A stretch of DNA of 64,000 nt, taken from assembly GCF_041886205.1 (NCBI RefSeq), contig NZ_CP169029.1, one strand, 5' to 3'. The position numbers and the translations under genes were made by a program. Below are positions 19,907-44,599 of this stretch, one piece after another. The notes beneath the pieces were generated by a model, which searched no databases, was not told the DNA's origin, and saw nothing but the letters and a program-made list of their open reading frames with translations. The DNA comes from Escherichia coli (lineage in GTDB: Bacteria; Pseudomonadota; Gammaproteobacteria; Enterobacterales; Enterobacteriaceae). Each line of letters begins with the position of its first letter. Positions within the stretch are counted from its first letter, which is position 1.

Positions 19907-21382
19907 TCAATACGGTTCTGACGAGTCGCTTACTTTTGTGCTGTCGCCAAAATCACTAATCCCTCTCACAATAAGCGCTGGAACTCCCTGCTTTTCGCAG
20001 GCATCAAATACCCCATAGGCTTCCATTTCGGCAACACAGGCTTTGTCATGAAGCGACCTGAAACGTTCTAGTAAAGCAGGATCGCGGATAAGAAGCTCTC
20101 CTGATGCGATAGTGGCTGAAGAAACAATTATCCCAGCAGCTACGTCTCCAGCCTGCGAATTTTCAGGCATTTCGAGTCCTATAGCCTGTGCCCGTTCGCC
20201 AAGACGTGCGGATAGTGACGTTGTTGCAAGGTAAGTATTGAGGTTTTGTTTAGTTGGCATATGGAGACATAATATTTCAGGTCGAGGAGCAAACTTCCCA
20301 CCTTCTAATGCGGCTGCACTTTCATAATAAATGACACGCTCAGAAATAATGACTTCACCTAGCACCATTTTTTCTCTCAACCCCGCCGCAATCCCCATCA
20401 TCAAGACTTTTTGGGGTTTGAATTCCGACAACAACATGGTAGTAATAGCTGAAGCATTCACATTTCCAGCACTAGCGAAAGACGCCACTATGCCAGTTAC
20501 TGGGCCATCTGAGCGTTGTATGGATGTGGACCAGAAATGTATTCCATTTGATGTGAGCCGCGGAGATTCATCATCAGCTATGCCAAATACTTTCTTGGCT
20601 GCAGCAAGTTCAACTGGTAGAGCTGTCAAAATCAACACATTTGGAGTATGCAGCAACTGTTGTGCAGCCCATTCAGCTTTAAGCAATTCAACTGCGATTT
20701 CTGAAAGTCGTTCCAGTCCATAGTAAGGTTCCTGTAACGATAAAGTGTCGAGCTGATTTTTTACGGCTTCACCGGTGCAAGGGAACATAGACAGCGGCTC
20801 TGCATAAAAACGTGCATGTAGGCCTAAAGCACCTTTTCCGTCATCGCAAATTCCCCCAAGCTCCAAGTCAAACGGTAATATGGGGTGGTTGGCTTTACGC
20901 ATTTTACTCGCACGATCGGAAACGCCTTTTCCTCCACCTAATGCAATCATGGCTGTGGCAGCATCAACCTGCTCGCTTCCAATATTTCCTCCAGTAATGA
21001 GATCATCATCTAGATAGCTGACATCAGCAAATCTAGCTGCCTGAAGTTTACGAATAAGCATCCGATTCTCTTCAGACATTTTCTCCCGCATTGCAGAACG
21101 CGACGTGACGATCTTGAGTTGGTGGGCTGGCGTATAATTCTCCATTAAATCTACAGCTTCTTTTACTATCGTCCAGTCGAAGGTCAGGAGATCCCCATTT
21201 TCATTAACAGGTTCTCCTGCCAAATAGACAACTAGTCCCACATTTGCATCAAGGATGCTCTTCGTCAATGCTCGAACGAAACTATGTGCTCGATCAATAT
21301 AAAGTTTTTCTGTATTTTTGGATATACTTCCAGCGATCAGAACATACTCATTATTAGTATTTGTCATCACAATTCTTCCCAA
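19907..21382 (-). CDS. Two-domain protein: N-terminal Rossmann-like domain with GGGKG motif (possible ligand sensor) + C-terminal PNP/MTA-nucleosidase-family domain; 3' end interrupted by IS66 element 2
   Basis: C-terminal half has nucleosidase-like motifs (VAEMEAYGV, RGISDFGD); last 8 codons and stop are IS-encoded (VSDSSEPY*). Confidence 0.6.
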   Translation of the reverse strand: MGRIVMTNTNNEYVLIAGSISKNTEKLYIDRAHSFVRALTKSILDANVGLVVYLAGEPVNENGDLLTFDWTIVKEAVDLMENYTPAHQLKIVTSRSAMREKMSEENRMLIRKLQAARFADVSYLDDDLITGGNIGSEQVDAATAMIALGGGKGVSDRASKMRKANHPILPFDLELGGICDDGKGALGLHARFYAEPLSMFPCTGEAVKNQLDTLSLQEPYYGLERLSEIAVELLKAEWAAQQLLHTPNVLILTALPVELAAAKKVFGIADDESPRLTSNGIHFWSTSIQRSDGPVTGIVASFASAGNVNASAITTMLLSEFKPQKVLMMGIAAGLREKMVLGEVIISERVIYYESAAALEGGKFAPRPEILCLHMPTKQNLNTYLATTSLSARLGERAQAIGLEMPENSQAGDVAAGIIVSSATIASGELLIRDPALLERFRSLHDKACVAEMEAYGVFDACEKQGVPALIVRGISDFGDSTKVSDSSEPY

Positions 21383-21396
21383 AGGAGTATTACTTG

Positions 21397-22296
21397 TTAC
21401 TGTTTAAGTAAGGCATAGATTTCATCCTTGTTTTTTAATGCTAACTGTAATGCTTCCGGCGCCTGATGTGACTGAGTCTCTGTAAGATTTAACTGGAAAA
21501 GAAGGTAGTGCAGCAAAGCTTGTCGGCATTCCAGATGGATTTCTCCGTCGATCATTGCATAATCTCTCTCAATAAGGTTTCGTTGAGCAAGGCATAGTCC
21601 AGGATGCGCTATAAGAATAATTTTGATGAATGTATTCCACGCTAAATCACCATTAGCCCTCTCTTCATCGGGTCCGGCGTTTTGTGCCTGCACTATTCGC
21701 GACAATAAAAAGTCCCTATATTCACCACGTTTATGACACCATGCTCTTGTGTGCCAGCGATAACCATCATGGACTAATGAATGAGGAGTCAAGGTTCGTT
21801 TACTGCCTTGAGGGTCACTCATGGATTGATAAATAACATGAACAGCCTCATTTTCACGTATAGCTCGTAATATTTGACTTACGACATCAGTGTCCAGTCT
21901 ACGTAACAGTCGTGGAACCGCTGCAACGGGTGAGCGCCAGCCCAGAAAGCTTCCAAAATGAATTTCAGGTTGTATTGCCACTCGCAGCAAATCATTCAGA
22001 TAACATTCCAGAGAGCTGGTCATATAAACTGGCTGAAACAATTTCGTTGAACGGTAAACTCGGGAACTCATATCGTACTCAAGATTATCGGGGGCTAACT
22101 TAGTATATTCACTAAGATCCAGCGAAGCTTGAGGTACTGATATGCCGAAAAAATCAGTGAGGCTGCTACGATTGATTTGCCCATCCCATCGAAGTCGATA
22201 ATCAATAAATTCAAGCCGACGCTCTTGGCCCCATCTCGCACCTTGCCGTCCTTTTTGGCTGTCTTGCTTATCCCCTTCTCTAAAGTTATCTGGCAT
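21397..22296 (-). CDS. WYL-domain transcriptional regulator (CapW/BrxR-like)
   Basis: 299 aa; N-terminal wHTH, central WYL-type motif (HDGYRWHTRAWCHKRGEYRDFLLSRI); divergent from the nucleotidyltransferase operon. Confidence 0.65.
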   Translation of the reverse strand: MPDNFREGDKQDSQKGRQGARWGQERRLEFIDYRLRWDGQINRSSLTDFFGISVPQASLDLSEYTKLAPDNLEYDMSSRVYRSTKLFQPVYMTSSLECYLNDLLRVAIQPEIHFGSFLGWRSPVAAVPRLLRRLDTDVVSQILRAIRENEAVHVIYQSMSDPQGSKRTLTPHSLVHDGYRWHTRAWCHKRGEYRDFLLSRIVQAQNAGPDEERANGDLAWNTFIKIILIAHPGLCLAQRNLIERDYAMIDGEIHLECRQALLHYLLFQLNLTETQSHQAPEALQLALKNKDEIYALLKQ

Positions 22297-22394
22297 CTTA
22301 GTTCCCGGTAGCGTATAAAAAATATCTCAATATAAAAAGTAGACGCAGAATAAAAACTGAACGTATAATAATGCTACGCTATAGGGCGGTAAGG

Positions 22395-22434
22395 TGCAAC
22401 CATCACCTCAGTCACTTCTGAGGTGATGGTTGCA
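22395..22434. promoter_or_regulatory. Perfect 17-bp inverted repeat (TGCAACCATCACCTCAG - 6 bp - CTGAGGTGATGGTTGCA) in the divergent intergenic region; candidate operator or 5'-leader hairpin
   Basis: Lies between a -10-like TATAAT (~22363) and the RBS/start at 22466. Confidence 0.5.
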
Positions 22435-22465
22435 GTTTTCATGAATGATCTTCGGAAGGATGTGA

Positions 22466-23410
22466 ATGCCACTCACTAATACTCAGATCCGATACTACGA
22501 CAGCAATGTACTGCGTTTGCCTAAGGATAAGCGTGAAACCTACAATGCCCAAGTAGATCGGCTTATTACAGCGTTACGTAAAAAACTGAAAGATCAGGAT
22601 AAAATAACAATAAAACGTGTCGTTAAAGCTGGTTCGTTTGCTAAACACACTATTCTACGCAAAACCTCAGACAGTCAGGTCGATGTGGATGTTGTGTTTT
22701 ACGTTAGTGGAGAGAAAGTTGCTGAGGAAACCTTCGCAAGCCTGAGCGAAAAAATTTACGAAGCCTTACTTAAAATGTATCCCAACAAAGCTGTAGAAGA
22801 TTTCGAGATTCAACGTAAGGCTGCTACTGTTTCTTTTGTCGGGACTGGATTAGATGTTGATATTGTTCCCGTCATCGAAAATCCGGACAAAGAAGGCTAT
22901 GGATGGCAGTTTGACCGTATCGATGGTTCGAAGACAGAGACTTGTGCTCCTTGCCAGATCAAATTTGTGAAAGATCGCAAAGACCAAGACCCGGACTTTC
23001 GTACTTTAGTACGCTTAGCTAAACGTTGGCGTACCAACATGGAATGCCCACTTAAGTCATTTCATATAGAACTAATCATGGCTCATGTACTAGAAGTCAA
23101 TGGAAAAGATGGTTCGTTGGAGAAGCGATTTCGGGATTTTCTACTGTACATTGCTGAATCAGGATTAAAAGAAGTTATCACCTTCCCTGAAAATAGCACT
23201 ATACCAGCATTTTCCCATCCAGTTGTCATACTGGATCCTGTTTGCGATACGAACAACGTTACCAGCCGTATTACCGAGGATGAGCGAAAAGAGATCGTCC
23301 GGATTGCTGAGGAAAGTTGGGCGACGGCAAATTTTGCGTCGGTAGAAGGAGACTATGATATCTGGAAGGAGCTGTTTGGTCGTTCATTTAAAGTGGAGGA
23401 TACAGCATGA
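22466..23410 (+). CDS. cGAS/DncV-like nucleotidyltransferase (CD-NTase-like)
   Basis: 314 aa; GS-x9-S-x5-DVD nucleotidyltransferase motif, third acidic residue in LDVDIVPV; RBS GGAAGGA upstream. Confidence 0.65.
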   Translation: MPLTNTQIRYYDSNVLRLPKDKRETYNAQVDRLITALRKKLKDQDKITIKRVVKAGSFAKHTILRKTSDSQVDVDVVFYVSGEKVAEETFASLSEKIYEALLKMYPNKAVEDFEIQRKAATVSFVGTGLDVDIVPVIENPDKEGYGWQFDRIDGSKTETCAPCQIKFVKDRKDQDPDFRTLVRLAKRWRTNMECPLKSFHIELIMAHVLEVNGKDGSLEKRFRDFLLYIAESGLKEVITFPENSTIPAFSHPVVILDPVCDTNNVTSRITEDERKEIVRIAEESWATANFASVEGDYDIWKELFGRSFKVEDTA

Positions 23411-23895
23411 GTTACTCCTCAACTGAAACATCGACTTATACCACAACAGACGTTGAAGCAGTCATGCGACGCATCACAGCTGACTTAGTGATGATTGCCG
23501 CCAGTACCGGTGCGATAACTGAATCAAAAGCACGTGAGTATGCTCACGATATAGAACTCTTAGCAAAAAATGGATATCTGGATTACGTCGATGTGACCCT
23601 TATAAGCAATGGCGTTGAACAGAAAGCAACCCGGTTTCATGTGAATGAGTCCGGAGAATTGGCAAATGACAGACCTGGAGACGCTCGTTGGCCGAGAATT
23701 CAGGGGGCTTATCTGCGGATTGTTGTGAACAACCGGAGTACCTACGATCAGGCTGCGAGGCAAAAGCTTTCAGGTAAGATGAAAATATCGTGGTCGCCAT
23801 GTAGTGATGACATCAGTCATTCAGGTTTGACCCAAAGTGGTGGTCGTGAATATTCCAGCAATGGTTATGGTATGCAACGTAAGGATTACAATTAA
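23407..23895 (+). CDS. Small protein (162 aa), possibly HORMA-like (Cap7-type); assignment from position and size only
   Basis: Translationally coupled (ATGA overlap) between the nucleotidyltransferase and the AAA+ ATPase. Confidence 0.35.
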   Translation: MSYSSTETSTYTTTDVEAVMRRITADLVMIAASTGAITESKAREYAHDIELLAKNGYLDYVDVTLISNGVEQKATRFHVNESGELANDRPGDARWPRIQGAYLRIVVNNRSTYDQAARQKLSGKMKISWSPCSDDISHSGLTQSGGREYSSNGYGMQRKDYN

Positions 23896-24791
23896 TGAGC
23901 AAGAGTAGTGTTTTCGACTCAGTGATTGATTTACCGCAGCGCGAACTGACAGAGCGAGAGAACATTTTACTTGGCTTTGAAAGTCGTTATGAGAGTGTCC
24001 ACAACCAACTCAACCTGCTGCTTAACCAAGGGCAACTCCTTGACTGGAGCAAGAAGTACCATAAGAGCGTTTTACCGCTCTGCAAGCTCGTTGCTGAGCA
24101 GTATCCGCTTGTTATTTTTCATGGTGATGTAGGAACAGGTAAAACAGCAACTGCTGAGTGCATCGCGAATCGTCTTGTCCGCGAGTCTCGCACTGAAGAT
24201 TCGGCCCTCTTTAAGCTCAGCAATCGGGTCCGTGGTTCCGGAAAAGTGGGGGAGATGGGGACGCTACTAACTCAGGCATGGGCAGAAGTGTGCGAGGCTG
24301 CGGGTAAAAATCGCAGAGCAATACTGATTATTGATGAAGGGGATTCAATTGCAGCTTCCCGTTCTCAAAACCACAGCCATCATGAAGATAAAGTAGCAGT
24401 AAATACTTTAATTCAAGGAGTGGATGAGCTACGAAAATTTGGCGGCCGGGTTGTGGTAATTTTATGTACTAATAGACTATCCGTCCTTGACCCTGCACTT
24501 CGTAGGCGAGCAGCGATTGTCGAAGAATTTACTCGCCCCGGGCTCACAGAACGAGAATCGCTTTTTCGCATGGATCTTGGAGGGATGGGATTGTCAGATA
24601 GTCAATATCGTCAACTAGCGGTGGCAACTGGTGAGAAAGAAAATCTGCCAGCATGGACATACTCTGATATCCGTACGCGCCTCTATCCCGCAGCAATGTC
24701 AAGAGCGTTTCCTGAACGGGCTTTAAGTTTTAATGATTTGATGGAATTATTGAAAATAATGAGGCCTTCCCCCGTCATGGGAGATATATAA
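23895..24791 (+). CDS. AAA+ ATPase, possibly TRIP13/Pch2-like (Cap6-type)
   Basis: 298 aa; Walker A GDVGTGKTA, Walker B ILIIDEGD; overlapping start with the upstream gene. Confidence 0.5.
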   Translation: MSKSSVFDSVIDLPQRELTERENILLGFESRYESVHNQLNLLLNQGQLLDWSKKYHKSVLPLCKLVAEQYPLVIFHGDVGTGKTATAECIANRLVRESRTEDSALFKLSNRVRGSGKVGEMGTLLTQAWAEVCEAAGKNRRAILIIDEGDSIAASRSQNHSHHEDKVAVNTLIQGVDELRKFGGRVVVILCTNRLSVLDPALRRRAAIVEEFTRPGLTERESLFRMDLGGMGLSDSQYRQLAVATGEKENLPAWTYSDIRTRLYPAAMSRAFPERALSFNDLMELLKIMRPSPVMGDI

Positions 24792-24848
24792 GGCCCCATT
24801 TCTTAATCAACTGATATACTATAAAAATCAACTCCAATTCCGGTACAT

Positions 24849-25451
24849 TTGTTGATTTACGGTGCACTTCTTGCAAGCAGGAACTATATGAGAACTGATA
24901 AAGAAATTTTCGTTTCAGTTGATGTGGAAACATCAGGCCCTATTCCGGGGAAATACAGTATGTTATCGATAGGTGCTTGTGTGGCATTTGAACCATCAAA
25001 GCAATTTTCATGTTACCTTAAACCGATATCTGAAGATTTTATCCCTGCGGCTATGGAAGTGACTGGGTTATCGCTGGAGAAGTTGCACGTCGATGGTTTG
25101 GATCCTGTTGATGCAATGGTTCAATTTAAAGAATGGATTAATTCGGTCGTAAAGGAAGATGAGACTGTAGTTTTTGTTGGTTTCAATGCTTCATTTGACT
25201 GGAGCTTTATTAATTATTATTTCCATGTATATTTAGGTGATAATCCTTTTGGCATCGCAGCACTCGATATAAAATCAATGTATTTTGGCGTTTCTCACGC
25301 CTCATGGAGATTAACACGTTCTAGTGAAATAGCGAAAGTTGTCAAACCTGAGACATATGGTGATCATGATGCATTACATGATGCCCGATATCAGGCTGAA
25401 CTATTCCGGTTGATCGATAAATTGAGCGAGAAGAAAAAATTAGATCGATGA
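24849..25451 (+). CDS. DEDDh-family 3'-5' exonuclease (DnaQ-like fold); likely start at Met 24888
   Basis: Exo [11 protein letters not shown], Exo [11 protein letters not shown], Exo [17 protein letters not shown]. Confidence 0.75.
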
Positions 25452-25994: not shown

Positions 25995-26067
25995 TACATT
26001 TGAGCCGGCCCCTTGAAACGCCAGACAGTGGATGTATCTTAAAATAAGAGATAGGCTTGGATATATG

Positions 26068-26424
26068 TCTAACACTAGTTCTAATTTTGAGATGACAGGA
26101 ACTTTGCTGGGGCAGGGGCTTCGTAAACGTAAAACTCCTCAGGAAAAAATTGACATTATTCAGCAGACAATGGAGCCTGGCATGACGGTGTCCCATGTGG
26201 CGCGTTTGCACAGTATTCAGCCCGGCCTGTTATTTAAGTGGAAAAAACAATATCTGGAAGGAAGTCTCACTGCTGTTGCTGCCGGAGAGGATGTTGTTCC
26301 TGCCTCAGAACTGGCTGCCGCTATAAAACAAATAAAAGAGTTACAGCGCTTTCTGGGTAAAAAACCATGGAAGTTGAGATCCTCAAAGAAGCAGTGGAGT
26401 ATGGTCAGTCGTAAAAATGGATAG
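26068..26424 (+). CDS. IS3-family OrfA (IS2 InsC-like)
   Basis: Motifs [24 protein letters not shown] and [33 protein letters not shown]. Confidence 0.7.
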
Positions 26425-26459
26425 CGCATGCGCCCTTGTTGCCAACGGACAAGGAATAA

Positions 26460-27225
26460 CCATGGTAATCCGTATTCTGGACGTGTCGCGTGCGTAACTG
26501 GCACAACGGATGAAAATATCTGGTAATAAGCCGGATAAACGTCGTCGCAGATGTGATGAGGCTGCGGATGCGGAAGTGTTAGCACGCATCCTTGATATCA
26601 TCAGCGATATGCCGACATATGGCTATCGTCGTGTCCGGGCTATTCTCAGACGGCAGTCTTAACGAAGGACTGCAGTTCGTGAATGCAAATCGCGTTTATC
26701 GAATAATGAGCGAGAATAACCTGTTGTTATTACATGACAAACCTTCACGACCGCAGAGGGAACATAAAGGCCCGAATATCGGTGAAGGAAAGCGACCCGC
26801 GCTGGTGTGCCGATGGCTTTGAGTTCGGTTGTGATGATGACGAAAAACTGCGTGTCACGTTCGCACTGGACTGTTGCGATCTTGAATCCATAGACTGGGC
26901 CGCAAGCACGGGAGGTTATGGCAAAGCAACGGTGCAGGATGTCATGTCAGGAGCGATAGAAAAACGCTTTGGCGATAGACCGGGATGGCCCATCCAGTGG
27001 CTGACCGATAACGGTTCAGCTTATACAACTCATGAAACACGGCAGTTCGCCAGAGAGTTGAATCTGGAGCTCTGCACGACGGCAGTCAGTAGCCCTCAGA
27101 GTAATGGAATGAGAGAACGGTTCGTGAAAACGATGAAGAGCGATTACATCAGTATCATACCTAAACCGGACGTGTTAACGGCAGTAAAAAACCTTGCGGA
27201 GGCGTTCGAACACTATAACGAATAG
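26460..27225 (+). pseudogene. IS3-family OrfB (DDE transposase) with frameshifts and stops
   Basis: Integrase-core homology spread over two or more frames. Confidence 0.7.
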
Positions 27226-27692: not shown

Positions 27693-30600
27693 GTGAAGTA
27701 TCAGATAGTAGGTGGTGCTGGCCTGCACCGCAGCGAAACCAAAACAGTTGATATGATGGTTAAGCAGTTACCAGATAGTTGGTTTGGCTATGCTGGCTTA
27801 GTTGTTACTGATAGCCAAGGGTCGATGGAAATCGATATGCTAATTATTACTGCTGACCGTCTGCTATTAGTCGAGCTTAAAGAGTGGAATGGTAACATCA
27901 CATTTGAAGGGGGGAAGTGGCTGCAAAATGGTAAGTCACGAGGCAAAAGTCCCTATCAGATCAAGCGTGAGCATGCACTGCGACTAAAAGATTTGTTGCA
28001 GGAAGAGTTATCTCGTAAGCTGGGTTACTTTTTGCATGTTGAGGCTCATGTAGTGCTGTGTGGCACAGCTGGTCCTGAAAACTTGCCATTAAGTGAGAGG
28101 CGCTATGTTCATACCCGTGATGAATTCTTGACTATAGGTAACCCAAAAAATTACGAAAAGCTGGTGCAACACACTAACTTTTTTCATCTTTTTGAAGGGG
28201 GAAAGCCTCGACCAAATTCTGATGAGGCATTACCTATAATTAAGTCCTTCTTTGAAGGACCAAAAGTCAGGCCTTTGCCACTAAAAGAAAGCGGTTATCT
28301 TGCGAACGATAAGCCATTCTTTAGTCACCCTCACATGGTCTACAACGAATTCAGGGCTACCCACAAAGACAATAGTCAACACAGAGGTCTGCTACGGCAG
28401 TGGAACTTTGATGCCTTGGGTGTAGCAAACGCAATGCAAACATTGTGGGCTGAGATAGCTCTGCGTGAGACTCGAGTCGGTCGCCTAGTTCGTCATGGCA
28501 GCGCAACTATGCAGGATTATATGTTGCGTGCTGTAAGGGAACTATCCGAGGAGGATATAACTGATGATGCCCGTGAGCTGTATGAGTTACGCCGTAGTTT
28601 TAGCCGATTAGATGAGATTCTAGATAGCGAAGCTGACGGATGGAGTAAATCTGAGCGTATTGATCGCGTTCGTGCATTATTAGCTCCATTCTCGGAATTA
28701 CATAGCTTGGGTATCAGTCATTGTGATATTGACCCGCACAATCTATGGTACGCAGGGGATCAGAAGAGCATTGTCGTTACTGGCTTTGGCGCAGCCTCAC
28801 TGGAGGGACATAATAGCCTAGAGTCATTGCGTCCGATATTGCAAAGTGCTCCATATATTTTGCCCGAAGATGCTTTTGAAGAAGCAGTTGAGCCCTATCG
28901 CCTAGATGTATTCATGTTGGCTGTAATTGCTTATCGTATTTGTTTTGCAGGTGAATCATTACTGACTCCTGGACAGATGCCTGAATGGAGAGCTCCATTA
29001 ACTGATCCTTTTAGCGGTATTCTAAATAGCTGGTTTGAGCAAGCTCTTAACCTTGAGCCAAGTAAACGCTTTCCACGTGCGGACATAATGCTCAATGAGT
29101 TTAATGCAGCTACTAAGGAACATAGCCAAGAATTTGATGAAGCTAACCAGATTTATCAAGAATTAAAGCAAAACAAATTCTTTCGCGAAGGGATGAACAG
29201 CGTTGGTGTGTTAATTGAGTTTCCTCCACTTCCTGAACAGTTGTCTATGGTTTACTCTGCTCTTGCTGCTATTGCTACGACTGGCAGCATCAGTTATCAC
29301 TGTGAACAAGGTGGGAAAGCTCTGCAGGTAAAATTGTGGGATGGTGTTATTTTGACCCCTCAACAACCTGGTGTTAACCGCCGTATCCACGCTTTTAAGC
29401 AACGGATCGATAAGCTTACGCATATAAATCTGCCAACTCCTAAGGTGCAGTCCTATGGACTATTAGGACAAGGCGGCTTGTATGTAGTGAGCGAGTATGT
29501 GGATGGCCTACCGTGGTCACAGTTTATTGCTGAGAACGTGTTAGTACAATCCCAACGTTTTACAATTGCGGAAAAGTTGATCAACACCATTCATGCTTTT
29601 CATGAAAAGCAGTTACCTCATGGAGATCTTTGCCCAGAGAAACTGCTGGTACAAGTCGGGGAGCAGACAGTAATTACTCTGATTGGATTGCTTGAATTCA
29701 GTGATGAATTAACTGCAGATAATCGCTACCAGCCAGAGAATCCCGAAAGTACTGATGCTTTTGGGCGAGATTGCTTTGCAGTATATCGTATGGTGGAGGA
29801 GCTATTTAGTGAAGATATGCCAGTACTGGTGCAGGCTGAGCTAGAACGCGCAAAACAAACCGTTGACGGTATACCTATCGCGCTCGATCCTTTGCTGCAG
29901 TCAATTCGAGCACCGGAACAAGCTGAGATTAATCAAGTTGTGGCGTCTGAGTCACAGGATAAGGTAATTCCTGTTTGCTGGGGCACAGATGATTGGCCGC
30001 AAGAAGTGAAGCTTCTAGAACAAAATGATGGGATCTATTATTTTCAATGTAACTGGTCATCGAACCCACGCTTTGCGCATGAATTGCGTTGTTACATCAC
30101 TGGCCTAGGAGAGCGGCTATTGATAGACTTAGATCCTGATAATCGCACTATTAATAGAATAGTGTATGAAAAAGGATTATCGATCGAAGAAAGTATAAAG
30201 GCTGGTAAATATTCCCAGGCTAAAATTAATACTCAACTTTCATTACAACGTGGCTCACTTAATCAGCGTAATACTTTTATTGAACTACTGTTTAACCTCG
30301 AGCCAGTAATTGATGCCATCATTGAGCGAGCTAATCCTAATCAAGAGATGGATGAAGATGACTTCGATAGTAGTGAGTCAAGCCCAATTGAGTTATGGCA
30401 GGCATTATCTGATACAGAAGTAGACCTACGAGATATAGTCAACATCGACTCTACTGACTTTCAGGAATCACCGAGTGGTTGCTTACTCTACCCATATACT
30501 ACGGAATCCGGTGCTGACCTCAGCTTTGAACTTGATGATAAGATCATTGTTTATATTAAAGATAAGCGTGAATCAGTGCAATTAGGGGAATTGCAGCTAA

Positions 30601-32651
30601 GTGAGACTACGCCGAGTCTATTGGCTATTCGCTTTGATTTTGATGCTGCTCGTAAGCGAATTAGTAGCGGCAGCCAGCTACAATTGGAATCGATCCGTGA
30701 CAAATCATCAAGAGAGTTGCGTCAAAGAGCCCTTCAACGGGTAATTGAAAACAAAGCAGAGATCCAGCATCTGCCACAGTATTTTGATTACCACCAGAAA
30801 CCCTGCATGCAGCAAATGCAACCGCGGCCATCCGCGGAGACATTACGCGCACTTTATGATCAGCCTGGACAACGTTTTAATGAACAGCAGCTAATGGCAT
30901 TTCAACAGTTGGTCGAGTTTGGACCAGTTGGAGTTCTGCAGGGACCACCTGGAACAGGTAAAACAACATTTATTTCAAAATTTATTCACTATCTGTATCA
31001 ACATTGCGGTGTGAATAACATTCTTTTGGTCGGGCAATCCCATGCCTCTGTTGATAATGTAGCCATCAAGGCTCGAGAGCTCTGCCATACGAAAGGAATG
31101 GAACTGGATACAGTACGTATTGGTAATGAACTTATGATTGATGAGGGTATGCTAAGTGTTGCAACTAAAGCTCTTCAGCGACAGATTCAGCATAAATTTC
31201 ACCGTGAATATGATCTGCGAGTTAGCTCCCTAGGAAAGCGCCTAGGGATGGCCCCATTATTAGTCCAACAGTTATGTCAGTTACATCGTACGCTGAATCC
31301 CTTGATGGTGACATATGGCCAATATAGCCGTGAGCTGGATAAAGTAGAACAAATAAAGAGTAGTAGTATTAGTCATCAAGAGCGACTGGCTGAATTATTA
31401 GAACAAAGCAATCAGCTTAAACTGCGAACACAAGAAATTATTAACTCAATATTCGATGACAGCTTGCTGAAAACTCTTGTCTATGATGAAACCTTGATAA
31501 GACAGTTGGCTGAGCAAGTTGCCATACAATACAATTATAACAATCCAGAGAACCTTGAACGTTTTATGCAGCTATTGGAAATGAGCCAAGAGTGGATGGA
31601 TGTATTACGCGGCGGCGAGGCTGGATTTGATCGATTTATGTTCAAAAGTAAGCGATTGGTTTGTGGAACTCTTGTTGGTGTTGGGAATCGTCGACTAGAA
31701 CTAGCTGAGTCCAGCTTTGATTGGGTAATAGTTGATGAGGCTGGCCGAGCACAAGCTGCTGAATTGATGGTAGCGCTGCAATCAGGCAAGCGGGTGCTGT
31801 TGGTAGGGGATCATAAACAATTGCCACCATTCTATCATCAACAGCATCTTAAGTTAGCCTCTAAGAAATTAGAACTCGGGAAAGGGATCTTTTATGAGTC
31901 TGATTTTGAACGTGCTTTTAAAGCAACAGGCGGCGTAACACTCGATACTCAATATCGAATGGTAGAACCAATTGGCGAGTTAGTATCGGAGTGCTTTTAC
32001 GCTCAAGATATCGGTAAACTGCATTCATCGAGGAAAGTCTCGCCAGATTGGTATTCCAAGTTACCAATCCCTTGGAACAAAACTGTTACTTGGATCGATA
32101 GTTCGAGCCCTAATGAAGCAGGTGCAGAAGAACATAAGGGTAATGGTCGTTACTATAATCAACGAGAAGTCCGGCTACTGCTAGAGGCTTTGCAGTCATT
32201 GTCGAGTGATGGCTGCATTGCACAGCTTGAGCAAACTATTACCACAGAACAGCCATATCCTATTGGTATAATCACAATGTATCGTCAGCAAAAAGAGGAA
32301 ATTGACAATGCTATCAGTCGGGCTGAATGGGCTGCATCGTTACGTGGTTTGATCAAGATCGATACCGTTGATTCATATCAGGGCCATGAAAACAAGATAA
32401 TTATCCTCAGTCTGGTTCGCGATAATCCCAACAAACTACAAGGTTTCCTGCGCGACGCGCCGCGAATAAACGTTGCTATTTCGCGAGCTCAAGAAAGGTT
32501 ATTGATTCTGGGAGCAAGGCGTATGTGGTCAAAGACCAATAATGATTCAGCACTTGGAAACGTTCATGAATTTATTAGTAAACAGGTTGCAGTAGATGAA
32601 CCCAACTACCAAATCCTGTGTGGTCAAAGTCTGCTTGGAGATAACAACTAA
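27693..32651 (+). CDS. 1652-aa multidomain protein: N-terminal NERD-like domain, two protein-kinase-like domains, C-terminal SF1 (Upf1/DNA2-like) helicase
   Basis: GTG start with AGGAG RBS; NERD-like EIDMLIITADRLLLVELKEW; kinase-like HCDIDPHN...TGFG...DVFMLAVIAY and HGDLCPEKLLV...DAFGRDCFAVY; helicase Walker [10 protein letters not shown], Walker B VIVDEAG, motifs LVGDHKQLPP, DSYQGHE, VAISRAQERLLILG. Confidence 0.8.
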   Translation: MKYQIVGGAGLHRSETKTVDMMVKQLPDSWFGYAGLVVTDSQGSMEIDMLIITADRLLLVELKEWNGNITFEGGKWLQNGKSRGKSPYQIKREHALRLKDLLQEELSRKLGYFLHVEAHVVLCGTAGPENLPLSERRYVHTRDEFLTIGNPKNYEKLVQHTNFFHLFEGGKPRPNSDEALPIIKSFFEGPKVRPLPLKESGYLANDKPFFSHPHMVYNEFRATHKDNSQHRGLLRQWNFDALGVANAMQTLWAEIALRETRVGRLVRHGSATMQDYMLRAVRELSEEDITDDARELYELRRSFSRLDEILDSEADGWSKSERIDRVRALLAPFSELHSLGISHCDIDPHNLWYAGDQKSIVVTGFGAASLEGHNSLESLRPILQSAPYILPEDAFEEAVEPYRLDVFMLAVIAYRICFAGESLLTPGQMPEWRAPLTDPFSGILNSWFEQALNLEPSKRFPRADIMLNEFNAATKEHSQEFDEANQIYQELKQNKFFREGMNSVGVLIEFPPLPEQLSMVYSALAAIATTGSISYHCEQGGKALQVKLWDGVILTPQQPGVNRRIHAFKQRIDKLTHINLPTPKVQSYGLLGQGGLYVVSEYVDGLPWSQFIAENVLVQSQRFTIAEKLINTIHAFHEKQLPHGDLCPEKLLVQVGEQTVITLIGLLEFSDELTADNRYQPENPESTDAFGRDCFAVYRMVEELFSEDMPVLVQAELERAKQTVDGIPIALDPLLQSIRAPEQAEINQVVASESQDKVIPVCWGTDDWPQEVKLLEQNDGIYYFQCNWSSNPRFAHELRCYITGLGERLLIDLDPDNRTINRIVYEKGLSIEESIKAGKYSQAKINTQLSLQRGSLNQRNTFIELLFNLEPVIDAIIERANPNQEMDEDDFDSSESSPIELWQALSDTEVDLRDIVNIDSTDFQESPSGCLLYPYTTESGADLSFELDDKIIVYIKDKRESVQLGELQLSETTPSLLAIRFDFDAARKRISSGSQLQLESIRDKSSRELRQRALQRVIENKAEIQHLPQYFDYHQKPCMQQMQPRPSAETLRALYDQPGQRFNEQQLMAFQQLVEFGPVGVLQGPPGTGKTTFISKFIHYLYQHCGVNNILLVGQSHASVDNVAIKARELCHTKGMELDTVRIGNELMIDEGMLSVATKALQRQIQHKFHREYDLRVSSLGKRLGMAPLLVQQLCQLHRTLNPLMVTYGQYSRELDKVEQIKSSSISHQERLAELLEQSNQLKLRTQEIINSIFDDSLLKTLVYDETLIRQLAEQVAIQYNYNNPENLERFMQLLEMSQEWMDVLRGGEAGFDRFMFKSKRLVCGTLVGVGNRRLELAESSFDWVIVDEAGRAQAAELMVALQSGKRVLLVGDHKQLPPFYHQQHLKLASKKLELGKGIFYESDFERAFKATGGVTLDTQYRMVEPIGELVSECFYAQDIGKLHSSRKVSPDWYSKLPIPWNKTVTWIDSSSPNEAGAEEHKGNGRYYNQREVRLLLEALQSLSSDGCIAQLEQTITTEQPYPIGIITMYRQQKEEIDNAISRAEWAASLRGLIKIDTVDSYQGHENKIIILSLVRDNPNKLQGFLRDAPRINVAISRAQERLLILGARRMWSKTNNDSALGNVHEFISKQVAVDEPNYQILCGQSLLGDNN

Positions 32652-34198
32652 TGTCAGAACCACGTCTGGGTAATCTGATTACCGTTTTACTACCTGCGCG
32701 TAGTTACAAGATCAACTGCGCTTTGACCACTGAAAAACTGATGCCTGGAATTGAACAGTTTGCATGTCGCTTGCTGCTGATTTTTGATCAACTCTATCCC
32801 AGCGAGTTACAGAATTACTTTGGTCTAACTGATCGTGAGCGAGAGGTATTGCTTGATGGGTTGCTGGCTAACAGACTGATCAACATTAATCCTGATGGGC
32901 ATATTGAGGCTAGCTCATTCCTACGTAAGCATGCAGCTAATAATGGTGGGAAGCCAAGTTTAGTTAAATATCAAGAATGTACGGAGGAAGTTGCATTCGA
33001 TCTACTAACTCTTTCGATATGTAAACCGCAACCAAATCGTCGTTTTACTTCTGGACTGCCAGAGCTATTGCCGCGGCATCAGATCGGGGGAGATGCTGCT
33101 GCGGTAACAGAGGCTTTTAGTTCCCAGTTTAGGCACCATCTTTTGCTCAGCCGCAACAGCGAGTATGAGCGTCAACGGACTAAATTATATAAGATAATGG
33201 GCTGTAGTTCGCATGAGATGGTGCAGCTCCCAATAGAGATAGAGGTTAGCTACGGTGTTTCTGCTGGGAGCATTGAGCCGCAGAAATTTACTCGTTCCTA
33301 TGAATATTTAGGTAACACCCGGCTGCCGCTTTCAAACGAGCTGGAAGCTCATATCGCAGATTTTTTGGGAGAACATAAACTAGATGAATTCGGTATCGAC
33401 TGTGAAGATTTCTGTAAACTAGCAAATGATAAAGTGTTGTTACAATTTGCTAATGGTTATAAGTTCAACTATTCCGGCTGGATAGAGGCTCGTGAACAAC
33501 GTAAAACTGGCTACGGTACTTCATTGACTACCGGCATGTTAGGGGCTGTTTATTTGCCGCACAATTCTAAGCTGTTCATTAGTATGTTGCATAATGCATT
33601 ACGTGATTATATAGGTAAAACAGCTCCAAAAGCGCTGTGGTATAGCAGTAAAGTACCACTGTGGGGAGCTAATGGTAGTCAACTTTCGCGTTTTACTCGC
33701 GCTCTAGGCGATATACTTGGCAATTATGCCGATGATAAGATTGCTCGCATTTCGCTTTTACACTCAAGTGCAGATGAAGGTGAAAAACGTCAAGAGCGTA
33801 AGCGGCACTTAGGTCGTTTTCCTACCGGTATTGGCCTTACTTCAGAGGCTAAATTTGATCGTTTGGAGATCCTCTTAATTCCTGATGTGATTGCTTTGGT
33901 GCAATACCACGGTCAACCTAATTCTGATAGTGCATTAACCCTGCCGATTGGTTATATAACTGTTGAGCCAGAGCGTTTAGAATTACTTAAAAAACTAATG
34001 ATTAAGCGAACTGAAGGGGCTGTTGCAACCATTACTTGGTCTGAATCAAAATTTGAAAATTTAGCTTCGCTATTACCTGTTGAGTTTCTGATTAAACTGA
34101 ATAAGAAAAGCGGTGAAGATGTGGATGCTGCAATAAAAAAAATGCAGATCTATAACCGTGCTGAAACCGCACGGGCAATTTTATCGCTACGCAAGTAG
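32651..34198 (+). CDS. 515-aa protein of unknown function, translationally coupled to the upstream gene
   Basis: Start ATG overlaps the upstream TAA (TAATG); no recognisable motifs. Confidence 0.6.
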   Translation: MSEPRLGNLITVLLPARSYKINCALTTEKLMPGIEQFACRLLLIFDQLYPSELQNYFGLTDREREVLLDGLLANRLININPDGHIEASSFLRKHAANNGGKPSLVKYQECTEEVAFDLLTLSICKPQPNRRFTSGLPELLPRHQIGGDAAAVTEAFSSQFRHHLLLSRNSEYERQRTKLYKIMGCSSHEMVQLPIEIEVSYGVSAGSIEPQKFTRSYEYLGNTRLPLSNELEAHIADFLGEHKLDEFGIDCEDFCKLANDKVLLQFANGYKFNYSGWIEAREQRKTGYGTSLTTGMLGAVYLPHNSKLFISMLHNALRDYIGKTAPKALWYSSKVPLWGANGSQLSRFTRALGDILGNYADDKIARISLLHSSADEGEKRQERKRHLGRFPTGIGLTSEAKFDRLEILLIPDVIALVQYHGQPNSDSALTLPIGYITVEPERLELLKKLMIKRTEGAVATITWSESKFENLASLLPVEFLIKLNKKSGEDVDAAIKKMQIYNRAETARAILSLRK

Positions 34199-34412
34199 CA
34201 TTTATATTGCAACGAATAAATTTTTCTAGGTTGCTATGAACTAGCTAAAGGGCAACAAATAGATAAACGGCGTTATTCATGTCAAATGAGATAATGTTAA
34301 ATTGATAGGGATTTATACCCCGCCGGCCATTTTGAATGGTCGGAGTTGTTATAAACGTTAAACCGCCCCGGAAATCCTGGAGACTAAACTCCCTGAGAAA
34401 GAGGTAAACAGG

Positions 34413-42000: not shown

Positions 42001-42612
42001 GTGCTCAGCGAGTTCATATTGCTCAGGATTTTTAATCCAGTCGCCGGCAACGTTCTTCAGCAGCCTCTCTGAATCATCCAGATATTGACGCCACTCCTGC
42101 TGCAAGGCTGCATATCGTGCTTCCCGTTCTTCATCCGTTTCGGCAGTCTTATCAATGCCGTCATCAAAGTTGATAGAGAACGAGGTATGGATTGTCTTGT
42201 ATTTGTCATACTGCCCAATCTCACCAATCGAAAATGCTCCTTTTGGCAAAGGTTCAAGCAGGTCTCTGGGAATGGAGGTCGCTGGCGTCGGATATAAAAA
42301 ACCCTCACGGCTTAGCAAGGCTGGCGTCACTATCGGGGTAACAATATCAGGCGCGCCTGCGGAACGGTCCTTACCATGCTGCAGTAACCGGAAATAAACT
42401 TTTGGGCGCAAGATGACATCGACCGTTTCGACATCGTCTTTTTCTCCCTTAAAAAATTTACTGACAATCGCTTCGTCAAGACGTCCCGCCGCTATCCCAT
42501 GCCAGTGAGTGAAATTTTTGGCGTCTTTCCGTTCAAAACTGCCCTTTCCTGACTCAGCATCCGCAAGCGAGTTGCGCCAGTATGAGGTAAACCCTAAAGC
42601 ATTTTCATCCAT
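39097..42612 (-). CDS. SF1 helicase fused to C-terminal PLD-family nuclease domain (Mokosh type II-like)
   Basis: 1171 aa; Walker [10 protein letters not shown], Walker B LIVDEAGQ, helicase motifs; C-terminal HxK-x4-D-x6-GSxN ([20 protein letters not shown]). Confidence 0.7.
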
Positions 42613-44326: not shown

Positions 44327-44493
44327 AGTATAGCCTTCTGAATGCGTTAAAGAGGGTACAAATTCTGTCGAACTGGGGTATGCCCGCAATTATACCCACA
44401 CAATGGGGTTGATGTGGGGGGAATCTGGTTGAGTTCGGTAGAATTGATTTGTAGGTAGAACGCTTAAATTGTGGCGTTCTGAAACGAAAAACG

Positions 44494-44523: not shown

Positions 44524-44599
44524 TGGTGCCCGGACTCGGAATCGAACCAAGGACACGGGGATTTTCAATCCCCTGCTCTACCGACTGAGCTATCCGGGC
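44524..44599 (-). tRNA. pheV: tRNA-Phe (GAA)
   Basis: 76-nt match to the canonical E. coli tRNA-Phe including CCA end; location next to yqgA and speC. Confidence 0.95.

What the first reader, a model, noticed from the sequence alone, without database searches (positions are those of the whole stretch)
28719..29641. Both kinase-like domains have non-canonical catalytic loops
Domain 1 reads HCDIDPHN where canonical Ser/Thr kinases have HRDLKPEN, and its DFG-equivalent is TGFG. Domain 2 reads HGDLCPEKLLV with no clear DFG (IGLLEFSD). The catalytic Asp is retained in both but the Lys of the loop is replaced. They could be divergent active kinases, nucleotide-binding pseudokinases, or one regulatory and one catalytic.
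Basis: seen in the sequence. Interest (0 to 1): 0.5.

Follow-up and report, generated by a model that had tools for sequence, protein, structure and literature searches.

The report
Two degenerate kinase domains in MkoA
The two odd kinase-like segments sit in MkoA, the large protein of a known E. coli anti-phage system (Mokosh type I): the first is a pseudokinase in the whole family, the second has lost its two metal-binding residues in this lineage, and the system very probably still defends.

Summary
They sit in a 1652-aa ORF (27693-32651, +) that is a full-length MkoA. A non-PLD MkoB follows it, which makes this a Mokosh type I anti-phage system in a tRNA-Phe defence island.

MkoA reads NERD nuclease, kinase-fold domain 1, kinase-fold domain 2, a central region, then a Upf1-like helicase. 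AlphaFold2 models of both domains match Hanks-type kinases.

Across 101 diverse full-length homologues, domain 1 never has the beta3 Lys, the catalytic-loop Lys or the DFG Asp. It is a conserved pseudokinase, like the one described in PglW.

Domain 2 is the family's canonical-looking kinase: 84 of 102 sequences keep Lys/Asp/Asn/Asp. This E. coli/Salmonella lineage has specifically lost both Mg2+ ligands (N650K, D665G) and the loop Lys/His (C647).

The gene is under purifying selection (dN/dS 0.095). The primers used to clone the active Mokosh type I of UPEC strain CFE331 flank this operon. They match exactly in a genome whose MkoA is 99.6% identical and carries the same motifs.

The most likely reading is that both domains act without catalysis, as a regulatory scaffold. 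This is a new variant of a known kind, of moderate interest.

The parts
27693..32651 (+). mkoA: 1652-aa NERD / pseudokinase / degenerate kinase / central region / Upf1-like SF1 helicase protein of Mokosh type I
   Evidence: ORF. PADLOC MkoA PDLC03921: E=0, 1303 bits, aa 2-1642. RefSeq annotates the same CDS as WP_000877065.1, 'AAA domain-containing protein'.
27732..28058 (+). NERD (PD-(D/E)xK-type nuclease) domain, aa 14-122, with E46, D48, E61 and K63 intact
   Evidence: Pfam NERD E 7.8e-14. D48 and K63 are invariant and E61 is E or D in all 102 sequences.
28260..29177 (+). Kinase-fold domain 1 (aa ~190-495): pseudokinase in the whole family
   Evidence: Pfam Pkinase E 1.5e-4. NCBIfam MAD6 5e-38 and PglW 3e-22. 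Family profile against Stk1/PknB 1e-19. AF2 pLDDT 93 and Foldseek kinase hits. 0 of 102 sequences have more than 2 of the 4 canonical residues. dN/dS 0.039.
28395..28397 (+). R235: invariant Arg in a beta strand of the modelled N-lobe, inferred to be the beta3 position (canonical VAIK Lys)
   Evidence: R in 102/102 sequences, with W237 also 102/102. The assignment to beta3 rests on strand position in the AF2 model and on the R235/E259 pairing by analogy. The N-lobe did not align to PDB kinases by sequence.
28467..28469 (+). E259: invariant Glu in the predicted alphaC helix of domain 1
   Evidence: E in 102/102 sequences, preceded by R258 in 97/102.
28719..28742 (+). Domain 1 catalytic-loop equivalent HCDIDPHN (H343, D345 kept; loop Lys replaced by D347; N350 present)
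   Evidence: The family consensus is HRD(I/L)GxHS: position 347 is never Lys and position 350 is Asn in only 13/102.
28779..28790 (+). Domain 1 DFG equivalent TGFG (DFG Asp replaced by G364)
   Evidence: Aligned to the DFG of CaMK1D and Stk1. Position 364 is G, H, N or S in the family and never D.
29190..29987 (+). Kinase-fold domain 2 (aa ~500-765): the family's canonical-looking kinase, degenerate in this lineage
   Evidence: Family profile against StkP 6e-18. PADLOC PD-T4-6 kinases ~1e-13 and NCBIfam Bud32 8e-7. AF2 pLDDT 88 and Foldseek kinase hits. dN/dS 0.22.
29331..29333 (+). K547: beta3 Lys of domain 2, retained
   Evidence: K in 93/102 sequences, in the motif VKxW, aligned to the AVKV of StkP.
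29619..29642 (+). Domain 2 catalytic loop HGDLCPEK (D645 kept; loop Lys/His replaced by C647; metal-binding Asn replaced by K650)
   Evidence: Family consensus is HGDL(K/H)PxN, with N in 93/102. The motif is identical in the 96%-identical AW1.7 allele and in Salmonella fragments.
29679..29699 (+). Domain 2 DFG-equivalent segment LIGLLEF (DFG Asp replaced by G665; second acidic residue D668 replaced by E)
   Evidence: Family consensus is LIDxxDF, with D665 in 98/102. D665 aligns to the DFG Asp of CDPK1 and to G364 of domain 1.
30813..32648 (+). Upf1/IGHMBP2-like SF1 helicase (aa ~1041-1652), Walker A GPPGTGKT at 30942-30965, Walker B DEAG at 31734-31745
   Evidence: Pfam AAA_11 1.1e-16. NCBIfam IGHMBP2-family helicase 1.2e-43. 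Motif coordinates.
32651..34198 (+). mkoB: 515-aa partner protein of the non-PLD ('HTH') type
   Evidence: PADLOC MkoB PDLC03923 E 1.1e-61. No HxK motif. No Pfam or NCBIfam hit. The homologous MkoB of the verified SEC470 system is listed as 'HTH' only.
27138..27161 (+). Site matching the forward primer prDP0298, used to clone the Mokosh type I of UPEC CFE331
   Evidence: 1 mismatch in the window. 0 mismatches in E. coli FDAARGOS_1262. Primer sequence from the supplement of bioRxiv 10.1101/2025.11.20.689424.
34271..34290 (-). Site matching the reverse primer prDP0299 of the same cloning
   Evidence: 2 mismatches in the window. 0 mismatches in FDAARGOS_1262.

Best explanation
The finding lies in the N-terminal regulatory half of MkoA, the large protein of a Mokosh type I (DefenseFinder 'I_A') anti-phage system. 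The domain order is NERD nuclease, kinase-fold domain 1, kinase-fold domain 2, a central region, then a Upf1-like helicase. A non-PLD MkoB follows.

Shown:
- Domain 1 is an ancient pseudokinase conserved across the family. It keeps the HRD Asp but has Arg at the beta3 position and no loop Lys, usually no Asn, and no DFG Asp. It is the most constrained part of the protein.
- Domain 2 is the family's canonical-looking kinase. It is the counterpart of the PglW domain whose catalytic-loop Lys is needed for autophosphorylation and defence.
- In this Enterobacteriaceae lineage domain 2 has lost exactly the two Mg2+-coordinating residues (N650K, D665G) and the loop Lys/His (C647). Its fold, its beta3 Lys and its HGD Asp remain.

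Inferred:
- Neither domain carries out conventional Mg-ATP phosphotransfer.
- The pair works as a non-catalytic switch or scaffold, possibly still binding nucleotide. It would couple the helicase sensor and MkoB to the cis-encoded NERD nuclease, much as pseudokinase domains gate the nuclease of RNase L or the kinase of JAKs.
- Phosphorylation is therefore dispensable for defence by this allele.
For: Identity of the system: PADLOC MkoA E=0 over the full length and MkoB 1e-61. Millman et al. describe type I MkoA as helicase plus STK.

Fold: Pfam, NCBIfam and PDB profile matches. AF2 pLDDT 93 and 88 with Foldseek kinase hits.

Family pattern: in 102 aligned full-length sequences, domain 1 never has more than 2 of the 4 canonical residues, while domain 2 has all 4 in 84 and 2 or fewer in only 6, the query among them.

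Specificity of the loss: of 45 N-terminal columns conserved at 85% or more, the query departs at 5. In domain 2 the only departures are N650K and D665G.

Direction of the change: the nearest relatives (44% identity or less) keep the tetrad K547/D645/N650/D665 (KDND), so the loss is derived.

Not decay:
- Intact in 69 of 71 carrying E. coli genomes at 99% identity or more.
- Its 90%-identity cluster has 1090 members.
- dN/dS against a 96%-identical allele is 0.095 overall, 0.039 in domain 1 and 0.22 in domain 2, and the motifs are identical.

Function:
- The primers that cloned the active CFE331 Mokosh type I flank this operon.
- They match exactly in a genome whose MkoA differs at 7 residues, carries identical motifs and has the same CBASS neighbour.

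Precedent for the triad: PglW and some DndF proteins carry a NERD, inactive kinase, active kinase arrangement, and PglW K677A abolishes autophosphorylation and defence.

Effector: the NERD residues D48, E61 and K63 are intact, and MkoB lacks PLD motifs.
Against: - No biochemical test was possible. Loss of the Asn and the DFG Asp does not strictly prove inactivity. From my own knowledge, CASK lacks the same two residues and still transfers phosphate without Mg2+.
- K547 and D645 are retained, which could reflect residual catalysis rather than structure.
- The CFE331 sequence itself was not seen. The link rests on primer matches and gene order.
- The dN/dS values come from one pairwise comparison with small counts (16.5 non-synonymous and 20.5 synonymous differences in domain 2).
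- The beta3 assignment of R235 rests on the model and the alignment, not on a solved structure.
- The scaffold mechanism is an analogy, not an observation.
Confidence: 0.6

Rival explanations
1. Domain 2 is still an active but atypical kinase. It would transfer phosphate without the canonical Mg2+ ligands, either metal-independently as in CASK or by using nearby acidic residues (E668, D671, E672) or K650 to position ATP.
For: The beta3 Lys K547 and the catalytic Asp D645 are retained. All other highly conserved domain 2 columns are intact. Domain 2 is still under purifying selection, dN/dS 0.22. In PglW, the activity of the equivalent domain is required for defence. The CASK precedent, where Asn is replaced by Cys and the DFG Asp by Gly, is from my own knowledge.
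Against: Three functional positions changed together (C647, K650, G665), and D668 became E. Domain 2 has the highest dN/dS in the protein, significantly above the rest (Fisher p=0.012). Loss of catalytic residues recurs independently in at least five other lineages, and some of those also lose the HGD Asp itself. That pattern fits dispensability better than rewiring.
Confidence: 0.2
2. In this sub-clade domain 1 has taken over catalysis. It reads H(R/C)DIDxHN, with the catalytic Asp D345 and an Asn at position 350 that most of the family lacks.
For: N350 and D347 are found in the query and its closest relatives P0001, P0004, P0006 and P0007. Domain 1 is the most constrained region, dN/dS 0.039.
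Against: It has Arg instead of the beta3 Lys in all 102 sequences, no Gly-rich loop, and Gly at the DFG Asp position. The relatives that share HRDIDxHN still keep a canonical domain 2, so the motif is not a compensation for losing domain 2.
Confidence: 0.05
3. The allele is a decaying, non-functional remnant of a Mokosh system, and the odd motifs are just mutational erosion.
For: The island is full of IS fragments and pseudogenes. Domain 2 evolves faster than the rest of the protein.
Against: Both genes have full-length ORFs in 69 genomes at 99% identity or more, and in a 96%-identical allele. dN/dS is 0.095. Only the two metal ligands, among the conserved domain 2 columns, are changed. The operon matches the primers of a cloned system that restricts Bas54, T4 delta-alt and Bas37 delta-beta-alpha-gt.
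Confidence: 0.05

Closest known systems
Mokosh type I MkoA/MkoB of E. coli SEC470 (experimentally verified; Millman et al. 2022, bioRxiv 10.1101/2022.05.11.491447)
   Same: Same length (1652 aa) and same architecture: NERD, domain 1 pseudokinase (LLRVW, RE, HRDVADHS, LSNFI), domain 2, Upf1-like helicase. MkoB is of the 'HTH', non-PLD type. Both are alignable end to end.
   Different: Only 27% identical. SEC470 keeps a canonical domain 2 (VKAW, HGDIHPGN, LIDIPDF), whereas the window allele has HGDLCPEK and LIGLLEF.
Mokosh type I of UPEC CFE331 (HIDEN-SEQ preprint, bioRxiv 10.1101/2025.11.20.689424)
   Same: The cloning primers flank this operon and match exactly in a genome with a 99.6%-identical MkoA. 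A CBASS type III system lies a few genes upstream, as in the window. This is probably the same allele group.
   Different: The CFE331 sequence itself was not available. That paper does not discuss the kinase domains.
PglW of BREX type 2 / Pgl (and a subset of DndF): NERD, inactive pseudokinase, active S/T/Y kinase triad
   Same: Same order and similar boundaries: PglW has NERD at 12-130, an atypical kinase at 195-490 and an STPK at 530-816, against 14-122, ~190-495 and ~500-765 here. NCBIfam PglW E 3e-22 over aa 14-417.
   Different: The C-terminal half of PglW is wHTH domains plus an inactive STAND domain, not a helicase. Its second kinase is active and required (K677A). Here the equivalent position is Cys and both metal ligands are gone.
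MAD6 kinase of the MADS defence system
   Same: The best-scoring named model for NERD plus domain 1: NCBIfam NF047741, E 5e-38, aa 10-486.
   Different: The score is below the family cut-off (131 against 460 bits). MAD6 has about 612 aa, has no helicase, and belongs to a methylation-associated 8-gene system.
Eukaryotic pseudokinases and atypical kinases (CASK, KSR, JAK JH2, RNase L); comparison from my own knowledge
   Same: - CASK lacks the same two Mg2+ ligands and has GFG for DFG.
- KSR has Arg for the beta3 Lys.
- JAKs carry a tandem pseudokinase and kinase; the JAK1 JH2 loop HGNVCTKN was the top single-sequence PDB hit for domain 2.
- The RNase L pseudokinase gates a fused nuclease.
   Different: There is no specific relationship beyond the shared kinase fold (12-19% identity in Foldseek hits). 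These are functional analogies only.

Membership tests
Mokosh type I (MkoA + MkoB) | Large MkoA with a COG1112 / Upf1-like SF1 helicase carrying Walker A and B motifs | tested here: met
   PADLOC MkoA PDLC03921 E=0 over aa 2-1642. IGHMBP2-family helicase 1.2e-43. GPPGTGKT and DEAG are present.
Mokosh type I (MkoA + MkoB) | Ser/Thr-kinase-like domain fused to the helicase gene | tested here: met
   Two kinase-fold domains.
Mokosh type I (MkoA + MkoB) | Adjacent co-oriented mkoB | tested here: met
   ORF 32651-34198 overlaps the mkoA stop codon by one base. PADLOC MkoB PDLC03923 E 1.1e-61.
Mokosh type I (MkoA + MkoB) | PLD-family nuclease (HxK motif) in MkoB | tested here: not met
   No HxK anywhere in the 515 aa. 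No Pfam or NCBIfam hit. The verified SEC470 homologue is also listed as 'HTH' only and has no HxK. This sub-type of Mokosh I therefore lacks the feature as a group.
Mokosh type I (MkoA + MkoB) | Protects against phage when expressed | not testable with these tools
   Indirect only. The primers of the active CFE331 clone match this operon, exactly so in a genome with a 99.6%-identical MkoA.
Catalytically competent Hanks-type protein kinase: domain 1 | beta3 (VAIK) Lys | tested here: not met
   R235, and Arg in 102/102 homologues.
Catalytically competent Hanks-type protein kinase: domain 1 | HRD catalytic Asp | tested here: met
   D345, and D in 101/102.
Catalytically competent Hanks-type protein kinase: domain 1 | Catalytic-loop Lys and metal-binding Asn (HRDLKPxN) | tested here: not met
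   The Lys position is D347 and is never K in the family. N350 is present here, but the family has Ser in 64/102.
Catalytically competent Hanks-type protein kinase: domain 1 | DFG Asp | tested here: not met
   G364. The family has G, H, N or S here and never D. Aligned to the DFG Asp of CaMK1D and Stk1.
Catalytically competent Hanks-type protein kinase: domain 2 | beta3 Lys | tested here: met
   K547, and K in 93/102. Aligned to the AVKV of StkP.
Catalytically competent Hanks-type protein kinase: domain 2 | HRD-equivalent catalytic Asp | tested here: met
   D645 in HGD, and D in 97/102.
Catalytically competent Hanks-type protein kinase: domain 2 | Catalytic-loop Lys and metal-binding Asn | tested here: not met
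   C647, where the family has K in 42 and H in 29. K650, where the family has N in 93/102.
Catalytically competent Hanks-type protein kinase: domain 2 | DFG Asp | tested here: not met
   G665, where the family has D in 98/102.
Catalytically competent Hanks-type protein kinase (either domain) | ATP binding and phosphotransfer | not testable with these tools
   Needs biochemistry.
PglW-type NERD / pseudokinase / active-kinase triad | N-terminal NERD with an intact PD-(D/E)xK core | tested here: met
   Pfam NERD 7.8e-14. D48, E61 and K63 are conserved.
PglW-type NERD / pseudokinase / active-kinase triad | First kinase-fold domain inactive | tested here: met
PglW-type NERD / pseudokinase / active-kinase triad | Second kinase-fold domain with a full catalytic set | tested here: not met
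   Met by 84 of 102 family sequences but not by this allele, which reads K/D/K/G at the Lys/Asp/Asn/Asp positions.

The most novel reading that the evidence does not exclude
A defence-competent Mokosh type I in which both kinase-fold domains are catalytically dead. If so, the NERD / pseudokinase / kinase module shared by MkoA, PglW, MAD6 and some DndF proteins would work at its core as a non-enzymatic conformational or nucleotide-sensing switch that gates a fused nuclease. Phosphorylation would be an optional layer that lineages have discarded repeatedly. At least five or six independent losses are seen, including widespread Enterobacteriaceae and Acinetobacter clades.
Probability: 0.45. Interest if true: 0.55.

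Novelty: new variant of a known kind. Interest (0 to 1): 0.4.

Why it matters
What the kinase module of Mokosh type I does is untested. Millman et al. mutated only the helicase and the PLD site. A later survey could not purify type I. No held paper links Mokosh with pseudokinases.

This allele is a natural separation-of-function variant. The fold and the other conserved residues are kept, both Mg2+ ligands of the only canonical-looking kinase domain are gone, and it is very probably the allele already shown to restrict T-even and Bas54 phages.

That makes a clean question directly testable with existing plasmids: is phosphotransfer needed for defence by the PglW/MkoA-type triad, or is the kinase fold a switch?

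It also cautions against annotating these proteins as 'serine/threonine protein kinase', the name IMG gives one member of this cluster.

Tried and rejected
- A word-indexed homologue search with domain 2 alone returned only 5 near-identical fragments at 92% identity or more. It found no intermediates between 46% and 90% identity, so the loss of N650 and D665 cannot be dated more finely.
- The N-terminal 399 aa of the other verified type I MkoA (ETEC H10407) gave no kinase hit in PDB with a single-sequence search. My by-eye reading of its motifs as 'HRH...GFE' stays unverified and is not used as evidence.
A 1.9-kb sub-query was used instead.
- A first PADLOC call on the neighbouring genes used coordinates transferred from strain ZYB39 and failed, because the window is not colinear with that genome downstream. 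It was redone from the window's own ORFs.
- Pfam and NCBIfam on MkoB found nothing.
- The model coordinates are not exposed to scripts, so pocket geometry and the R235-E259 contact could not be measured.
- Rejected: a chance motif match, a pseudogene, and a PLD-type Mokosh.
Full report
**Observation.** The window has a 1652-aa ORF at 27693-32651 (+), followed by a 515-aa ORF at 32651-34198 that overlaps it by one base.
- HCDIDPHN, aa 343-350, window 28719-28742.
- TGFG, aa 363-366, 28779-28790.
- HGDLCPEKLLV, aa 643-653, 29619-29651.
- IGLLEFSD, aa 664-671, 29682-29705.

The stated interval therefore begins at the first catalytic loop and ends inside the second.

**What the gene is.** PADLOC matches the large protein to MkoA model PDLC03921 over its whole length (E=0, 1303 bits) and the next protein to MkoB model PDLC03923 (E 1.1e-61). 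Pfam finds NERD (aa 14-122), Pkinase (aa 317-418, E 1.5e-4), a weak second Pkinase (aa 595-657, E 0.07) and AAA_11 from aa 1062. NCBIfam adds four matches:
- An IGHMBP2-type helicase at aa 1338-1638.
- The MADS kinase MAD6 (E 5e-38, aa 10-486).
- PglW (E 3e-22, aa 14-417).
- Bud32 for the second kinase region.

[quoted passage not shown] The operon is on the chromosome of 71 of 5426 complete E. coli genomes, nearly always at 99% identity or more. It lies in an IS-rich island at tRNA-Phe, next to a CBASS operon. Its 90%-identity cluster has 1090 members from E. coli and Salmonella.

**Both segments are kinase folds.**
- Single-sequence searches of PDB align domain 1 to CaMK1D, PknB and others. 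HCDIDPHN falls on HRDLKPEN and TGFG on SDFG.
- Domain 2 aligns weakly, and its top hit is the JAK1 JH2 pseudokinase.
- Profiles built from 35 homologues are far stronger: domain 1 against S. aureus Stk1 at E 1.3e-19 and M. tuberculosis PknB at about 1e-17, and domain 2 against StkP at E 6e-18.
- AlphaFold2 models have pLDDT 93 (domain 1) and 88 (domain 2). Foldseek returns only protein kinases at probability 1.0.
- hhalign aligns the two C-lobes to each other (97.5% probability). It equates H343/D345/D347/N350/G364 with H643/D645/C647/K650/G665.

**Family context.**
- An exhaustive HMMER search with aa 1-800 found 1660 proteins at E of 0.001 or less, 155 of them at 1e-30 or less. Nearly all of the listed best hits are 1550-1750 aa long.
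- I aligned the 101 full-length cluster representatives with the query.

*Domain 1.*
- Invariant or near-invariant residues are E219, R235, W237, R258, E259, H337, H343, D345, W352 and D405.
- The position I assign to the beta3 Lys is Arg in all 102 sequences.
- The catalytic-loop Lys position is mostly Gly and never Lys.
- The Asn position is mostly Ser.
- The DFG Asp position is G, H, N or S and never Asp.
- No sequence has more than two of the four canonical residues, so domain 1 is a pseudokinase throughout the family.

*Domain 2.* The family consensus is VKxW ... HGDL(K/H)PxN ... LIDxxDF. All four of Lys, Asp, Asn and Asp are present in 84 of 102 sequences.

*Published parallel.* This arrangement matches what is published for PglW: NERD (12-130), an atypical kinase (195-490) and a Hanks kinase (530-816). 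The K677A mutant of that Hanks kinase loses autophosphorylation and phage resistance. [quoted passage not shown]

**What is unusual in this allele.**
- The query's domain 2 reads QVKLW ... HGDLCPEK ... LIGLLEF.
- The beta3 Lys and the HGD Asp are kept. The loop Lys/His is Cys, the metal-binding Asn is Lys, the DFG Asp is Gly, and the following conserved Asp is Glu.
- Of the 45 N-terminal columns conserved at 85% or more among the 101 homologues, the query departs at five. They are R252W, A342S, S363T and, in domain 2, only N650K and D665G, which are the two Mg2+ ligands.
- The nearest relatives (P0001 at 44-46% identity, and P0004 from Xanthomonas campestris) keep the four positions K547/D645/N650/D665 as KDND, so the change is derived.
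- The experimentally verified Mokosh type I of E. coli SEC470 was recovered from an identical upstream sequence in strain TUM1886. It is 27% identical to the query, has the same architecture, and has a canonical domain 2 (HGDIHPGN, LIDIPDF).
- Five other cluster representatives also have two or fewer of the four residues. In each case the nearest neighbour is canonical. One of them stands for 334 mostly Acinetobacter sequences. Loss of the domain 2 catalytic set is therefore recurrent.

**Is the allele alive?**
- A 96%-identical allele in E. coli AW1.7 has an intact ORF and identical motifs.
- Nei-Gojobori dN/dS between the two alleles is:
  - 0.095 for the whole gene;
  - 0.096 for NERD;
  - 0.039 for domain 1;
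  - 0.22 for domain 2;
  - 0.098 for the central region;
  - 0.085 for the helicase.
- Domain 2 is significantly more relaxed than the rest (Fisher p=0.012), but it is still constrained.
- The HIDEN-SEQ preprint cloned 'Mokosh_Type_I_A' of uropathogenic strain CFE331. In that strain the system occupies genes 03975-76, with CBASS III at 03965-69. The cloned system restricts Bas54, T4 delta-alt and Bas37 lacking its beta-alpha-glucosyltransferase.
- The genome-specific parts of the two cloning primers match the window at 27138-27161 (1 mismatch) and 34271-34290 (2 mismatches). These sites bracket mkoA-mkoB.
- Both primers match with no mismatch in E. coli FDAARGOS_1262. There they flank an operon whose MkoA differs from the window's at 7 residues, has identical motif strings and has the same CBASS neighbour.
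- I infer that the tested system belongs to this allele group. The CFE331 sequence itself was not available.

**Mechanism.**

Shown:
- The architecture.
- The fold of both domains.
- The family-wide pseudokinase state of domain 1.
- The lineage-specific loss of metal ligands in domain 2.
- Purifying selection.
- An intact NERD catalytic core (E46, D48, E61, K63) and intact helicase Walker motifs.
- A MkoB with no PLD HxK motif and no recognisable domain. The homologous MkoB of SEC470 is listed as 'HTH' only.

Inferred:
- The NERD nuclease is the cis effector.
- The helicase, and perhaps MkoB, is the sensor.
- The two kinase folds form a non-catalytic switch between them.

The dependence of phage escape on DNA glucosylation and on the Alt ADP-ribosyltransferase fits a DNA-directed effector and a protein-level control point, but does not prove either. 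The main rival is Mg-independent catalysis by domain 2. This is plausible because, from my own knowledge, CASK lacks the same two residues and is still weakly active. It is disfavoured by the joint change at four positions, by the relaxed constraint on domain 2, and by the independent losses elsewhere that also remove the HGD Asp.

**Comparison and novelty.** The system is a known kind (Mokosh type I, sub-type A), and the NERD / pseudokinase / kinase triad is described for PglW and DndF. No held paper mentions Mokosh together with pseudokinases, the kinase module of MkoA has not been mutated, and Mokosh type I resisted purification in a 2025 survey. The new points are these:
- MkoA carries the PglW-type tandem.
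- Domain 1 is a pseudokinase in the whole family.
- This widespread Enterobacteriaceae allele has also lost the metal ligands of domain 2 while very probably staying defence-competent.

I rate it a new variant of a known kind, with interest 0.4.

Noticed in passing
window 39097-42612 (-), with an integrase-size ORF at 43064-44389 (-) and tRNA-Phe at 44524-44599 (-): A second Mokosh system of type II lies in the same island: single-gene MkoC, 1171 aa, PADLOC PDLC03924 E=0 with a PLD-like C-terminus. It sits next to the tRNA-Phe attachment end. One island therefore carries both Mokosh types.
   Followed up: partly
window 19907-25451: A CBASS type III operon lies directly upstream of mkoA. It has a cyclase (22466-23410), TRIP13 (23895-24791) and an exonuclease effector (24849-25451). 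A divergently oriented PNP/TIR-type effector (19907-21382, -) and a WYL regulator (21397-22296, -) sit beside it. The same CBASS-Mokosh pairing is reported for strain CFE331.
   Followed up: partly
window 32651-34198 (+): This MkoB has no HxK (PLD) motif and no Pfam or NCBIfam domain, although Mokosh is defined as helicase plus PLD nuclease. The verified SEC470 MkoB is also 'HTH' only. In this sub-type the nuclease may be the NERD domain of MkoA.
   Followed up: partly
window 28323-28469 (aa 211-259 of MkoA, N-lobe of domain 1): The pseudokinase N-lobe carries a set of invariant or near-invariant polar residues that are not the usual kinase ones: H212 (91/102), E219 (100/102), R235, W237, R258 and E259. 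This suggests a conserved non-ATP or modified ligand site. Domain 1 also has the lowest dN/dS in the protein, 0.039.
   Followed up: no
P0122 cluster (Acinetobacter spp., 334 members), plus P0047, P0093, P0112 and P0148: Other MkoA lineages have independently lost domain 2 catalytic residues. For example, Acinetobacter reads HGNLDDEK and Roseomonas reads HGSLSSEK / LDGLFRL. The nearest neighbour of each is canonical.
   Followed up: partly
Millman et al. Table S2, ETEC H10407 MkoA (1215 aa), not in the window: By eye, the single N-terminal 'kinase' of the other verified type I MkoA reads ...LLHRHLDENAIL...QLTGFEWS. That would mean HRH in place of HRD and GFE in place of DFG. A single-sequence PDB search gave no kinase hit, so the register is unconfirmed.
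   Followed up: partly
window 26032-27225 and 27138-27161: A frameshifted IS3-family transposase remnant lies just upstream of mkoA. The forward primer used to clone the CFE331 system lies inside it, so the 'native promoter' fragment of that clone includes IS3 sequence.
   Followed up: no
window 8482-9294 (+): A 270-aa reverse-transcriptase-domain ORF (PADLOC RT, E 1.5e-38) matches only the C-terminal part of the RT models. It may be a truncated group II intron or a defence-associated RT.
   Followed up: no
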